This document shows positions 57,630 to 60,091 of a DNA stretch of 64,000 nucleotides, one piece after another. Under the pieces are notes generated by a model. The model worked only from the letters and a program-made list of their open reading frames with translations. It was not told the DNA's origin and did no database searches. The position numbers and the translations under genes were made by a program. How positions within the stretch are numbered: position 1 is the first letter of the stretch; every line of letters starts with the position of its first letter. The stretch is from Alphaproteobacteria bacterium GWF2_58_20 (GTDB lineage Bacteria > Pseudomonadota > Alphaproteobacteria > UBA1247), in NCBI GenBank assembly GCA_001768735.1, contig MEMB01000002.1:699031-763030 (forward strand). Reading direction: 5' to 3'.

Positions 57630-57746
57630 TCCGGAAGCCCTTCTTTGATGTTCGTTTCCAAAAACGCCGCGTCTTCCGCCGATGCGTTCCTGCGGGCGAT
57701 AACCGGCGCCATGTCCGGCGCTTTGAGCCATGCGTTTTCTGCAGGG
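57630..57746 (+). repeat. direct repeat copy A (about 117 bp), the partner of 58684..58802
   Basis: About 90% identical to copy B, with a perfect 68-bp core gatgcgttcctgcgggcgataaccggcgccatgtccggcgctttgagccatgcgttttctgcaggg. Confidence 0.7.
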
Positions 57747-57842
57747 AAGCCATGCAGAAATGACGGTTGCAATGAGGGGGGAAGAGCGGATACTTTAACA
57801 AGATCGAACAACTGGAAACGTCATGACAAGGGGTGCAAGGCA

Positions 57843-58601
57843 ATGACAACGCAAGAAACCATCAGGAAAAACCTGTTTGAGGCCACAAGACAGGGTGACC
57901 TTCCTCAAGTAAAGAAACTCATCGCCCAGCTGGACGAAGGCACCCAGCTTTCCGATGTGAAGGACATGAATGACTTCACGCCGCTGCATCTTGCTGCCGC
58001 GATGGGGCACAAGGATCTCGCGGAATTGCTGGCGGAAACGTGCCCGGACGCCATGATGGTGAGGGACATAAATGGCCTAACGCCGCTGCATTATGCTGCC
58101 GGGGAGAGGAATACGGATGTCGTGGAATTGCTGGCGAAAGAATGCCCGGACGCCATGATGGTGAGGGACATAAATGGCAACACACCGCTGCATGAGGCTG
58201 CCGCGAAGGGGCACAATGATATCGCGGAATTTCTGGCGGAAAAATGCCCGGACGCCATGATGGTGCAGAACAACAAGGGCAACACACCGCTGCATTGGGC
58301 TGTCTACTTGGGGTGCTTTGATATCGTGGAATTTCTGGCCGAAAAGGGCCCGGGCGCCATGATGATGAAGGACAAGTATGGCCTAACGCCGCAGGATGTG
58401 GCTGCCGAGAATGAGGACGAGGATACCGCGGCATTTCTGGAGAAAAAGATACGGGATGCCCTAAAGGTGAAGAACGGGGATGCACCCCTGACCATGGAAG
58501 AATTCAATCGTCTTTCCGCAGCCGCAGAAGCTGGGGAGATCGAAACTGTAAGGAAAATCCTAAAGGCAAAGGGTGTTTTCGCCCAGAAACCCAAGATGTA
58601 G
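57843..58601 (+). CDS. ankyrin-repeat protein
   Basis: The start was set at MTTQETIRKN. There are five or more repeats (TPLHLAAAMGHKDLAELL, TPLHYAAGERNTDVVELL, TPLHEAAAKGHNDIAEFL, TPLHWAVYLGCFDIVEFL). Confidence 0.7.
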   Translation: MTTQETIRKNLFEATRQGDLPQVKKLIAQLDEGTQLSDVKDMNDFTPLHLAAAMGHKDLAELLAETCPDAMMVRDINGLTPLHYAAGERNTDVVELLAKECPDAMMVRDINGNTPLHEAAAKGHNDIAEFLAEKCPDAMMVQNNKGNTPLHWAVYLGCFDIVEFLAEKGPGAMMMKDKYGLTPQDVAAENEDEDTAAFLEKKIRDALKVKNGDAPLTMEEFNRLSAAAEAGEIETVRKILKAKGVFAQKPKM

Positions 58602-58683
58602 AGGTTTAAGAAAATCCGCCACCAAAACCCCGGCTCCGCAAAGAGCCGGGGTTTTTGCTTGCCGCGAGCAAATATCCGGCCAA

Positions 58684-58802
58684 TCCGGAAGCCCGGCTTT
58701 GATTTTCGTTCCCAAAAGAACGCAGCGTCTTCCGCGGATGCGTTCCTGCGGGCGATAACCGGCGCCATGTCCGGCGCTTTGAGCCATGCGTTTTCTGCAG
58801 GG
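58684..58802 (+). repeat. direct repeat copy B, immediately upstream of the paralog C start codon
   Basis: See copy A. It ends 5 nt before the ATG at 58808. Confidence 0.7.
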
Positions 58803-58807
58803 CCGCC

Positions 58808-60091
58808 ATGACGGACTTGCGCTTCTCATTTGCGCGATTTAATGCCACAATCCTTTTCATGGACAGGAAACTTGCACAATTTTTAAAGGGCTCTCCCGTC
58901 GAGGTCGCCAGCGGCGGCCAGCCCCATGGCTGGAGCCGTCGCCTTGCCACCGTTCTCCTGTCCCTTGGCTTTTTCATGGCGGCTTTCGGCGCGCCCCAAC
59001 CCGCCAGCGCCGACGAGGCTTCCACCCACTCCCTCCTCAAGGAGTTCCAGCAAAAGGCCGACAGTTTCCTGCCCAAGGGCCGCGTCTTTTATGTCACACG
59101 GCGCGAGGTCGTTGAGGCACCGGAGGCCCTGCTTTCCCGCATCATGGAAACCGGCGCCCAACACGGCATCGCCACGGAATCCGCGCGCGAAGGCATCAAA
59201 GCCCTGAACGAACACATCCACGAAAACCCTGTCGGCGCTGCCAACACCACCACGCCTGAAGAAGTTTCAAGCGCCCTCATGCCAGTGACCATCATCATCC
59301 CAAATACGTCGGAATGGAGCGAGCAGGAAGCTCTTTCCACATTTTTGAGCTGCGCCCCGGACACCATCTGCACTCCCGCCCCCATTACGCTCAGGCAAAT
59401 CAACCGCTTCACGCTGTACCACGAACTGGGGCACGCCTTCCAGCCTGAAGGCGGCTTCATCCCGGAATCCGGCAACGCAACCTACACCGCCCAGATGGGA
59501 GAGCTGCACGCCGACATTTACGCCATGGTGGCCATGACGCGCGACGAGAAAAGCCCCTCCTGCGCCAGGGTATGGACCAACACCCGCGTTACAGATACCC
59601 TCGCAGGCATTCTCTTTGGCGCCGGAAGCCGCGAAAAAACCGCAGAAGAAGCCGCCGACAAAGCTTCCGAATACAATATCAGCCAATCCCTCCTGAAGGC
59701 CTGCGACATGCTGGATGGCTTTCTTGCCGACCCGGAAAACCGGAATCGCCTTCTGAATGCCGCCGATGAAGACATCCTTTCCATCGCCAATATCATTTTC
59801 AAAGAGGTTTACCCGAACGAGGCGACCTACGCCCAAAACCTCGAGGGACTGAATCTCCTTGGCCAGGTTTCCCCCTTCAGCCTCCAGCCCACCGGCCACT
59901 ACATGCCAAGCATCGCCCATGCCTGGGTGGACGCCCGCGACGATACGCTTGCATCCAGCACTCCTCAGATCCGCAAAAATCTCAAGGACTTCCTTGAGGG
60001 CGCGCTGAAGGCCAGCAAATCCCTCCAGCGCCCGATGACGACCGAGGAAAGGCAGCTCCTTCCTCCCCTCAAAAAACCGAAAGCCCCCTGA
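58808..60091 (+). CDS. membrane-anchored putative zinc metallopeptidase-like protein, paralog C (canonical HExxH: HELGH)
   Basis: 427 aa. GWSRRLATVLLSLGFFMAAF forms a TM helix. YHELGHAF and ELHADIYAM sit at the same spacing as in paralogs A and B. Confidence 0.6.
   Translation: MTDLRFSFARFNATILFMDRKLAQFLKGSPVEVASGGQPHGWSRRLATVLLSLGFFMAAFGAPQPASADEASTHSLLKEFQQKADSFLPKGRVFYVTRREVVEAPEALLSRIMETGAQHGIATESAREGIKALNEHIHENPVGAANTTTPEEVSSALMPVTIIIPNTSEWSEQEALSTFLSCAPDTICTPAPITLRQINRFTLYHELGHAFQPEGGFIPESGNATYTAQMGELHADIYAMVAMTRDEKSPSCARVWTNTRVTDTLAGILFGAGSREKTAEEAADKASEYNISQSLLKACDMLDGFLADPENRNRLLNAADEDILSIANIIFKEVYPNEATYAQNLEGLNLLGQVSPFSLQPTGHYMPSIAHAWVDARDDTLASSTPQIRKNLKDFLEGALKASKSLQRPMTTEERQLLPPLKKPKAP

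What the first reader, a model, noticed from the sequence alone, without database searches (positions are those of the whole stretch)
57630..58850. An ankyrin gene is bracketed by a 117-bp direct repeat that duplicates the promoter-proximal region and first codons of paralog C
The sequence immediately upstream of the paralog C start (58684..58802) recurs at 57630..57746, with a perfect 68-bp core. Copy A is followed by ATGACGG and then a stop after 12 codons, which echoes the real ATGACGGAC start of paralog C. So the ankyrin gene (57843..58601) sits inside a duplicated 5' region of paralog C. This is consistent either with insertion by target-site duplication or with a tandem duplication that was later overwritten. 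Both the ankyrin gene and paralog C may therefore carry copies of the same upstream regulatory DNA.
Basis: seen in the sequence. Interest (0 to 1): 0.55.

Follow-up and report, generated by a model that had tools for sequence, protein, structure and literature searches.

The report
Ankyrin gene insertion flanked by duplication
A species-specific ankyrin-repeat gene was inserted between two divergently transcribed genes of an uncultured alphaproteobacterium and is flanked by two copies of a 125-base non-coding segment; this is a real but ordinary scar of gene gain, not a mobile element or a new system.

Summary
The repeat is real. Copy A (57630-57754) and copy B (58684-58810) are 92% identical, with a perfect 66-nt core (not 68). 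They bracket the ankyrin gene (57843-58601) and its terminator. Independent assemblies are 100% identical here.

A related species (L005, 85% protein identity) has the empty site. There DUF2087 and paralog C are adjacent, and 38 bp stand where the window has 1,262 bp. L005 has no ankyrin gene and no repeat. A more distant relative (L008) lacks paralog C too, so genes were gained stepwise at this spot.

Only the last ~19 nt of copy B look homologous to L005. The other ~108 nt have no counterpart anywhere searched.

Paralog C most likely starts at ATG 58859, not 58808. The repeat therefore ends 48 nt upstream of the start, outside the probable core promoter, and duplicates no codons.

The repeat matches no Rfam family, folds no better than shuffles, and has no consistent reading frame. 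No terminal inverted repeats were found at the cargo ends, and no recombinase is annotated nearby.

Best reading: a lineage-specific insertion accompanied by a local duplication of the DNA upstream of paralog C. The core stays identical through gene conversion or selection. The mechanism is unresolved. Interest is low.

The parts
57630..57754 (.). Repeat copy A (125 nt), non-coding, upstream of the ankyrin gene
   Evidence: 92% identical to copy B, with 8 mismatches and a 2-nt indel
58684..58810 (.). Repeat copy B (127 nt), ending 48 nt upstream of the probable start of paralog C
   Evidence: The last ~19 nt (58792-58810) are homologous in register to L005
57681..57746 (.). Perfect 66-nt core in copy A (equals 58737-58802 in copy B)
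   Evidence: 2 exact matches in the window, 0 in shuffles; a run this long given 9 differences has P about 0.009
58737..58802 (.). Perfect 66-nt core in copy B
57843..58601 (+). Ankyrin-repeat gene (252 aa), built from five 102-nt internal tandem units; the cargo of the insertion
   Evidence: Ank_2, E 1.6e-39; family D1. No close homolog: apart from its own sequence, the best hits are at most 46% identical over part of the length
58624..58656 (+). Intrinsic-terminator-like hairpin after the ankyrin gene: 13-nt perfect arms, with an A-run before and a T-run after (bidirectional in form)
   Evidence: pair I13
57555..58816 (.). Lineage-specific segment (1,262 bp) that stands where the related genome L005 has 38 bp
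   Evidence: window 56821-57554 matches L005 3978-4710, and window 58817-60200 matches L005 4749-6136. Also
57555..57629 (.). 75 nt left of copy A, unrelated to the DNA left of copy B. Contains terminator-like hairpins for the minus strand (for example 57601-57615). Positions 57572-57597 weakly resemble the sequence just upstream of the GNAT gene in outgroup L008
   Evidence: (5 of 500 shuffles reach the score)
57736..57760 (.). Hairpin found only at the right edge of copy A (TTTCTGCAGGG / CCATGCAGAAA). It is formed by 8 extra bases that copy B lacks
   Evidence: pair I22
58859..60091 (+). Paralog C (410 aa from the probable start; the ORF is open from 58808). A secreted-looking protein with a HELGH motif and no Pfam family
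58843..58851 (+). Putative extended -10 element (TGC CACAAT) 7 nt before ATG 58859, conserved in L005 as TGG CATAAT. It suggests a leaderless or very short-leader mRNA. Inferred only
   Evidence: read from the sequence
56813..57343 (-). DUF2087 gene, the left neighbour, transcribed away from the insertion
   Evidence: PF09860, E 2.4e-22
57448..57499 (-). COG3860 RNA motif (Rfam RF02940) in the leader of the DUF2087 gene. It marks the orthologous intergenic region in relatives
   Evidence: 58.8 bits, gathering score 42.5; also present in L005 and L008
60093..60602 (+). GNAT acetyltransferase gene immediately after paralog C. In outgroup L008 its ortholog is the direct divergent neighbour of DUF2087

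Best explanation
The locus is a scar of lineage-specific gene gain. The ancestral arrangement had DUF2087 (with its COG3860 RNA leader) and a GNAT gene as divergent neighbours. A gene for a secreted HExxH-type protein (paralog C) was added first. Later, only in the species of this window, an ankyrin-repeat gene with its own leader and intrinsic terminator (cargo about 57755-58683) was added. It landed between the two divergent core promoters without damaging either.

The insertion came with a local duplication of a ~125-nt non-coding segment that lay just upstream of the paralog C core promoter. One copy now precedes the ankyrin gene and one still precedes paralog C. The duplication could have arisen by fill-in of a long staggered break, by template switching during repair, or by a single crossover with a DNA circle carrying that segment. 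These routes cannot be told apart here.

The two copies have since diverged at their edges. The central 66 nt remain identical, through gene conversion between the copies and/or selection on both.

Shown: the repeat, the insertion relative to L005, the stepwise gain, and the absence of the repeat elsewhere. Inferred: that the duplicated segment pre-existed upstream of paralog C, the mechanism of duplication, and any regulatory role.
For: The repeat is real and statistically far beyond chance.

Empty site: in L005, 38 bp stand where the window has 1,262 bp. The flanks align at 86% on both sides, and there is no ankyrin gene and no direct repeat.

Outgroup L008 has DUF2087 and the orthologous GNAT (57-68% identity) as direct divergent neighbours, with the same COG3860 RNA.

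The ankyrin protein has no close relative among 5.8 billion protein clusters. The cargo encodes only the ankyrin protein, and no recombinase or transposase family is annotated on the called genes in about 6-8 kb of flanking DNA.

In-register homology to L005 extends into the last ~19 nt of copy B (14/25 matches, P 0.003). Copy A carries the same tail (13/19 matches). Native upstream DNA was therefore duplicated.

The DNA left of copy A weakly resembles native sequence in L008 (5 of 500 shuffles reach the score). That fits a model in which everything to the left of copy A, and copy A itself, is resident DNA.

Nothing beyond the repeat is duplicated. The differences between the copies are clustered outside a 66-nt perfect run (P about 0.009).
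Against: About 108 nt of the repeat have no counterpart in L005 or L008. The model therefore needs an extra event: that segment was gained in this lineage before the ankyrin gene, or lost in L005.

No genome with the intermediate state is available. The DUF2087 search shows only the same species, L005 at 85% identity, and then relatives at 59% or less.

The weak similarities to L005 and L008 rest on short stretches and on several comparisons. No known bacterial mechanism routinely makes 125-nt target duplications.
Confidence: 0.55

Rival explanations
1. The repeat is not native to paralog C. It arrived with the ankyrin gene as that gene's own upstream DNA, or both copies arrived together. Copy B is then either part of the imported fragment or a later secondary copy placed next to the paralog C promoter.
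For: L005 and L008 lack the ~108-nt body of the repeat. The block absent from L005 (57555-58816) contains both copies, and copy B ends only 6 nt before clear homology resumes. One import event would account for all the novel DNA.
Against: The last ~19 nt of the repeat are homologous in register to native L005 DNA, so at least that part was copied from the resident site. A donor that was a concatemer or tandem array is excluded, because the DNA to the left of the two copies is unrelated. No donor or homolog of the repeat or of the cargo was found in any collection.
Confidence: 0.25
2. The repeat is a working cis-regulatory module, for example upstream binding sites for a transcription factor. 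Its duplication put the new ankyrin gene and the secreted HExxH protein under common control. The perfect core reflects purifying selection. This is compatible with either origin above.
For: Both copies sit in the same orientation directly upstream of a gene: 88 nt before the ankyrin start codon and 48 nt before that of paralog C. The 66-nt perfect core contrasts with about 14% divergence at the edges. The repeat contains recurring GCGTTC/GAACGC half-sites and small palindromes (read from the sequence; one search pairs I8 and I19).
Against: No sigma-70-like promoter was found in either copy. There is no comparative support, because the repeat exists nowhere else. No enrichment of repeat-derived words was seen elsewhere in the window. 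Gene conversion alone explains an identical core, since 66 nt of identity is ample for RecA-dependent exchange (established knowledge).
Confidence: 0.25
3. The repeat copies are recombination sites of a mobile gene cassette. They would be analogous to integron attC sites, which are of similar length, or to the attL/attR sites of an integrated element.
For: Direct repeats of about 125 nt bracket a single small gene. The length is like that of the Vibrio cholerae repeats (attC sites; from general knowledge).
Against: There are only two copies in 64 kb and none elsewhere. The single-strand folds are no better than shuffles as RNA or DNA, and there is no pairing between the two ends of the unit. 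No integrase or recombinase family is annotated on the called genes in about 6-8 kb of flanks. The cargo has its own terminator. Similarity between the copies fades gradually at the edges rather than stopping at a sharp core.
Confidence: 0.03
4. The repeat encodes something itself: a small RNA or a short peptide, on either strand.
For: On the plus strand the frame through the core is open in both copies. It runs into the ankyrin ORF in copy A and ends in an ATGA overlap with the 58808 ORF in copy B. On the minus strand, terminator-like hairpins lie downstream of both copies.
Against: The 2-nt indel between the copies breaks every frame that crosses it. No Shine-Dalgarno sequence precedes the in-frame ATGs (read from the sequence). 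There is no Rfam match. Fold z-scores range from +1.1 to -2.0. The only outside match, a 25-nt identity inside a helix-turn-helix gene of a Caulobacteraceae genome, does not extend further and looks like chance.
Confidence: 0.05

Closest known systems
Insertions flanked by long direct duplications of resident DNA (Campbell-type single-crossover integration, or duplication-insertion during break repair)
   Same: The cargo is bracketed by two direct copies of a resident non-coding segment. The copies share an identical centre and differ at the edges. The cargo carries no recombinase. Recombination between the copies would excise the cargo and leave a single copy.
   Different: No donor circle or homologous donor sequence is known. 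The relative with the empty site lacks most of the duplicated segment, so the target sequence cannot be shown to have pre-existed.
Transposon or insertion-sequence target-site duplication
   Same: Direct repeats flank inserted DNA.
   Different: Those duplications are 2-14 bp (general knowledge), whereas this one is 125 nt. There are no terminal inverted repeats, no transposase, and the copies are not identical.
Integron gene cassettes with attC sites (for example the ~120-nt Vibrio cholerae repeats)
   Same: The repeat length is similar. The repeats are in direct orientation around a single small gene.
   Different: There is no integron integrase annotated on the called genes nearby, no array, and no attC-like imperfect palindrome pairing the two ends of the unit. 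The cargo has its own terminator. The repeat is unique to this locus.
Gene-gain hotspots in intergenic regions between divergent genes
   Same: Three related genomes show three states at the same spot: GNAT only; paralog C plus GNAT; ankyrin plus paralog C plus GNAT. The flanks are conserved, and the gained genes are of host-interaction type (ankyrin, Sel1, secreted protein).
   Different: Nothing unusual apart from the 125-nt flanking duplication.

Membership tests
Transposon / IS insertion with target-site duplication | Short (2-14 bp) identical duplication of the target | tested here: not met
   The repeat is 125/127 nt and 92% identical
Transposon / IS insertion with target-site duplication | Terminal inverted repeats at the ends of the inserted DNA, and a transposase gene | tested here: not met
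   No inverted repeat pairs the cargo ends. The only gene in the cargo is the ankyrin gene
Integron gene cassette (attC) | attC site: an imperfect palindrome whose two ends pair (R''/L'' with L'/R') in the folded single strand | tested here: not met
   DNA and RNA folds of both strands are no better than shuffles and differ between the copies, with no consistent pairing of the two ends
Integron gene cassette (attC) | Integron integrase and an array of several cassettes | tested here: not met
   No integrase or recombinase Pfam family is recorded on the called genes in about 6-8 kb of flanks. There are only two copies in 64 kb
Integrated element with attL/attR | An identical core flanked by unrelated arms, with the integrase inside the element | tested here: not met
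   A 66-nt identical core exists, but similarity continues on both sides at about 86%. The cargo is 929 nt and encodes no integrase
Dispersed repeat family (REP, MITE and the like) | Many copies per genome, and presence in related genomes | tested here: not met
   There are two copies in the window. Exact-word scans of species-representative genomes, JGI metagenomes and viral contigs gave only two unrelated chance hits. Nothing was found in plasmids or phages. The whole genome of this organism could not be read, so more distant copies in it are not strictly excluded
Known structured RNA family (Rfam) | A match to a covariance model at or near its gathering score | tested here: not met
   No hit overlaps the body of either copy. 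Two weak, sub-threshold hits centred on the adjacent terminator graze the first ~23 nt of copy B. The only real hit in the region is COG3860 RNA at 57448-57499
Local segmental duplication of non-coding DNA | Two nearby direct copies of an otherwise unique sequence with sharp boundaries | tested here: met
   The flanks on either side are unrelated
Lineage-specific gene insertion (presence/absence against an orthologous empty site) | Conserved flanks in a relative, with the cargo absent | tested here: met
   In L005 both flanks align at 86%, and 38 bp stand in place of 1,262 bp

The most novel reading that the evidence does not exclude
The 125-nt segment is an active module rather than a passive scar. 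It could be a recombination site that captures single-gene effector cassettes next to the secreted HExxH gene, giving a non-integron cassette system. Or it could be a portable regulatory unit copied on purpose to wire newly acquired host-interaction genes into an existing regulon. On this reading the 66-nt invariant core is the functional site.
Probability: 0.05. Interest if true: 0.6.

Novelty: new member of a known kind. Interest (0 to 1): 0.2.

Why it matters
The locus is a clean, datable example of stepwise acquisition of host-interaction-type genes (ankyrin, a secreted HExxH-like protein) at one intergenic spot in a poorly sampled alphaproteobacterial lineage. The flanking 66-nt identity predicts that the ankyrin gene can be lost by simple recombination. 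It also gives a testable case of regulatory DNA being duplicated together with a gene gain. It does not reveal a new mechanism or system. Its practical value is mainly in correcting two annotations: the 405-aa ankyrin call, and the two conflicting database calls (427 aa and 410 aa) for paralog C, of which the 410-aa one is supported.

Tried and rejected
- Dispersed element. Exact-word scans of the core in genome contigs (24-mer), metagenome contigs (20-mer) and viral contigs gave one hit each in an unrelated Caulobacteraceae helix-turn-helix gene (L007) and a soil contig (L011), and nothing in viral contigs. Neither hit extends beyond 21-25 nt, so both are chance. The window's own genome did not show up in these scans, so it is either absent from those collections or masked there.
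- Plasmid or phage origin of the cargo. A sensitive blastn search found nothing.
- Donor of the ankyrin gene. No homolog exceeds 46% identity, and that only over part of the length.
- Structured RNA. No Rfam match was found even at E up to 5, and the RNA and DNA folds are not better than shuffles.
- Coding repeat. Six-frame translations show no frame shared across the 2-nt indel.
- Concatemer or tandem-unit donor. The DNA to the left and to the right of the two copies is unrelated.
- Shared motif with other genes. Words from the repeat with at most one mismatch show no striking enrichment in the window. Nothing similar lies upstream of paralogs A and B.
- Intermediate genomes. DUF2087 relatives drop from 85% to 59% identity with nothing in between. 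All same-species contigs are identical.
- Literature. A search for COG3860 and DUF2087 returned nothing bearing on this locus.
- Weak leads not relied on. The 3' end of the repeat (AGCCATGCGTTTTCTGCA) resembles the native left junction (AGGCAAGCGTTTTCAGC); 11-18 of 500 shuffles reach that score. A 12-nt perfect inverted repeat (57417-57428 / 58847-58858) is not conserved in L005.
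Full report
**1. The observation**

The repeat is real and sits at the stated coordinates.
- Copy A is 57630-57754 and copy B is 58684-58810.
- They align over 125/127 nt with 8 mismatches and one 2-nt indel. That is 92% identity, with blastn E 1.9e-47 within the window.
- The uninterrupted identical core is 66 nt (57681-57746 = 58737-58802), not 68. It occurs exactly twice in the 64-kb window and never in 100 dinucleotide shuffles.
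- Similarity stops sharply on both sides. The 130 nt to the left and the 90-105 nt to the right of the two copies are unrelated.
- The nine differences are not spread evenly. A perfect run of 66 or more nt has a probability of about 0.009 if the differences were placed at random.

The repeat is not an assembly artefact. Five contig excerpts from three samples (NCBI GCA_003485165.1, ENA ERZ27254744, Logan SRR6487408) are 100% identical to the window over the parts of 56701-60200 that they cover. The two Logan contigs end at 57710 and begin at about 58773. These are the points where a k-mer graph becomes ambiguous in a shared 66-nt core.

**2. What surrounds it**

The organism is an uncultured 'Rhodospirillaceae bacterium' known only from metagenome-assembled genomes. 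From left to right the locus contains:
- a Sel1-repeat gene (55818-56687, minus strand);
- a DUF2087 gene (56813-57343, minus strand), whose leader carries the Rfam COG3860 RNA motif at 57448-57499 (58.8 bits against a gathering score of 42.5);
- 75 nt of unique DNA containing terminator-like hairpins for the minus strand;
- copy A, followed by 88 nt;
- an ankyrin-repeat gene (57843-58601, 252 aa) built from five 102-nt internal tandem units;
- a strong terminator hairpin, bidirectional in form (58624-58656);
- copy B;
- 'paralog C', whose stop is followed within a base by a GNAT acetyltransferase gene (60093-60602).

Paralog C has no Pfam family and no relative of solved structure. It is about 24% identical to two paralogs at 504-1793 and 2143-3360.

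**3. The start of paralog C**

Four observations favour ATG 58859 instead.
- NCBI annotates a 410-aa protein from that ATG.
- Paralogs A and B align only from that region onward.
- In register with the ortholog in L005, nucleotide identity is 89% in the 100 nt after 58859. It is only 63-67% in the 42-51 nt before it.
- The 17 extra residues are 7/18 identical between the two species, against 85% for the rest of the protein.

Seven nucleotides upstream of ATG 58859 lies TGC-CACAAT (58843-58851). L005 has TGG-CATAAT at the same place. This looks like an extended -10 element that would give a leaderless or nearly leaderless mRNA. That is inference from the sequence and has not been tested.

The repeat therefore ends 48 nt upstream of the start. 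It lies outside the probable core promoter and contains no codons of paralog C.

**4. Comparative evidence**

The protein searches show how thinly this lineage is sampled.
- Paralog C has only two clusters among 5.8 billion: itself, and an 85%-identical protein, P0002.
- The DUF2087 protein drops from 100% to 85% and then to 59% identity.

The 85% relative is L005, from GCA_964549205.1. It has DUF2087 (minus strand) directly next to paralog C (plus strand). Window 56821-57554 aligns to L005 3978-4710, and window 58817-60200 aligns to L005 4749-6136, both at 86% identity. Between those blocks L005 has 38 bp where the window has 1,262 bp (57555-58816). L005 has the COG3860 RNA at the orthologous place and no direct repeat.

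The 59% relative is L008. It has Sel1 and DUF2087 facing the orthologous GNAT gene directly (57-68% identity), with no paralog C and no ankyrin gene.

The simplest history is therefore stepwise gain in one divergent intergenic region: first paralog C, then the ankyrin gene. The ankyrin protein itself has no close relative; its best hits are at most 46% identical over part of the length. The donor is unknown.

**5. How much of the repeat is native**

I anchored the comparison on the shared start codon, so that no alignment optimisation was involved. Identity to L005 by block is:

| Window block | Identity to L005 |
|---|---|
| 58859-58958 | 89% |
| 58817-58858 | 67% |
| 58792-58816 | 56% (14/25, binomial P 0.003) |
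| further left | 28% (random) |

So about 19 nt at the 3' end of copy B, including the last 11 nt of the perfect core, are resident DNA. Copy A carries the same tail (13/19 matches to L005).

The remaining ~108 nt of the repeat have no counterpart in L005 or L008. They also have no counterpart in species-representative genomes, JGI metagenomes, viral contigs, plasmids or phages. The two exact-word hits that did appear, in L007 and L011, do not extend beyond 21-25 nt and are chance matches.

There is one weak hint that the DNA to the left of copy A is resident. Positions 57572-57597 resemble the sequence just upstream of the GNAT ribosome-binding site in L008; 5 of 500 shuffles reach that score.

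**6. What the repeat is not**

- It is not a known RNA. There is no Rfam match at E up to 5.
- It is not a stable structure. The fold z-scores lie between +1.5 and -2.0 for both strands, as RNA or as DNA, and the predicted folds differ between the copies.
- It is not coding. The 2-nt indel breaks every frame that crosses it.
- It is not a transposon footprint. It is 125 nt long, imperfect, has no terminal inverted repeats, and there is no transposase.
- It is not an integron or an integrated element. No integrase family is annotated on the called genes in about 6-8 kb of flanks, there is no array, and there is no attC-like pairing of the ends.
- It is not part of a longer duplicated unit, which excludes a concatemeric donor.
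- No promoter-like sigma-70 site lies inside it.
- Words from it show no striking enrichment elsewhere in the window.

**7. Most likely history**

I favour, at about 0.55, the following account. The ~125-nt segment lay upstream of the paralog C core promoter in the immediate ancestor. L005 differs by a ~180-nt indel in this fast-evolving spacer. The ankyrin cargo (about 57755-58683: leader, gene, terminator) was then inserted, and the segment was duplicated in the process. One copy now precedes each gene.

The route could have been repair of a long staggered break, template switching, or a single crossover with a circle carrying that segment. I cannot tell these apart. One possible trace of fold-back synthesis lies at the right edge of copy A. 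Eight extra bases there create the hairpin TTTCTGCAGGG/CCATGCAGAAA (57736-57760). I do not rely on this.

The edges of the two copies differ by about 14%, similar to the divergence between the two species. The core is identical. This pattern fits gene conversion between copies 1 kb apart, or selection on both copies, or both.

The main rival, at about 0.25, is that the repeat arrived with the ankyrin gene. That reading explains why L005 lacks the body of the repeat, but not why the tail of the repeat is native DNA.

A regulatory role for the repeat is compatible with either history, at about 0.25. It cannot be tested with sequence alone, because the repeat exists nowhere else.

**8. Verdict**

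The repeat is confirmed, with two corrections: the core is 66 nt, and no codons of paralog C are duplicated.

The ankyrin gene is a lineage-specific insertion bracketed by a duplication that includes some native DNA from upstream of paralog C. It is not a classical target-site duplication. The relative with the empty site does not contain most of the duplicated segment.

This is an ordinary, if tidy, example of gene gain with a flanking duplication. It is a new instance of a known kind and of low general interest (0.2).

Noticed in passing
window 57448-57499 (-); L005 4603-4655 (-); L008 4003-4054 (+): COG3860 RNA motif (Rfam RF02940, 56-59 bits) lies in the leader of the DUF2087 gene in all three related genomes. 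The surrounding ~200 nt look nearly unchanged between the window and L005 in the alignment, much more conserved than the neighbouring spacer.
   Followed up: partly
window 57912-58475: The ankyrin gene consists of five tandem 102-nt (34-aa) units that are 68-83% identical at the DNA level. This suggests recent internal expansion. The recurring motif is CPDAMMVRDINGxTPLH.
   Followed up: partly
window 504-1793, 2143-3360, 58859-60091: Three paralogs (~24% identical) encode a secreted-looking protein with no Pfam family and no PDB relative. H188, E189, G191, H192, E215 and D219 are invariant. The motif reads HELGH in C but HEAFGH in A and B, so a canonical zincin motif is uncertain. A profile search of 1.84 billion representative proteins found only 52 members, so this is a rare, undescribed family.
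   Followed up: partly
window 57384-58601 and 58808-60091: These are likely annotation errors in public records. NCBI's 405-aa ankyrin call starts at a TTG and runs through the COG3860 RNA and copy A on the opposite strand of the DUF2087 leader; ATG 57843 (252 aa) is more plausible. The 427-aa call for paralog C in ENA should probably be 410 aa. NCBI also calls an 84-aa minus-strand ORF (58606-58860) across copy B; its frame is broken by the 2-nt indel in copy A.
   Followed up: partly
window 55818-60602 compared with L005 and L008: The neighbourhood is mosaic on both sides. L005 has an extra staphylococcal-nuclease-like gene between Sel1 and DUF2087, and an extra GNAT gene. L008 lacks paralog C. 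The region behaves as a hotspot for gain of host-interaction-type genes (Sel1, ankyrin, secreted proteins).
   Followed up: partly
window 57417-57428 and 58847-58858: A perfect 12-nt inverted repeat (GAAAAGGATTGT / ACAATCCTTTTC) places the same 12-mer upstream of both divergent genes, each in its own orientation. It is not conserved as a pair in L005. About 0.08 such pairs are expected by chance in this region (my own estimate).
   Followed up: no
window 57736-57760: A hairpin specific to copy A (TTTCTGCAGGG / CCATGCAGAAA) sits at the right boundary of copy A. It is made by 8 bases absent from copy B, and could be a fold-back or template-switch trace, or chance.
   Followed up: no
window 57532-57549 compared with 57726-57743 / 58782-58799: The native sequence at the left junction (AGGCAAGCGTTTTCAGC) resembles the 3' end of the repeat (AGCCATGCGTTTTCTGCA) at 15/18 positions; 11-18 of 500 shuffles reach that score. 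It could be microhomology or a shared motif, or chance.
   Followed up: partly
L007 1368-1392: A 25-nt exact match to the repeat core lies inside a 113-aa ORF with helix-turn-helix-like sequence (not scanned against any family library) of a Caulobacteraceae MAG, encoding APDMAPVI. On the minus-strand frame the repeat also reads APDMAPVI ... WERKSKPG, compared with EWERGAKRPSG in that protein. This is probably chance, and one copy is frameshifted.
   Followed up: partly
L006 14376-16991 (about 5 kb beyond the window's right end): A DNA cytosine methylase, a Vsr endonuclease and an AspBHI/Mrr-like restriction gene lie downstream of the oxygen-detoxification genes (rubredoxin, its reductase, a flavodiiron-type protein).
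   Followed up: no
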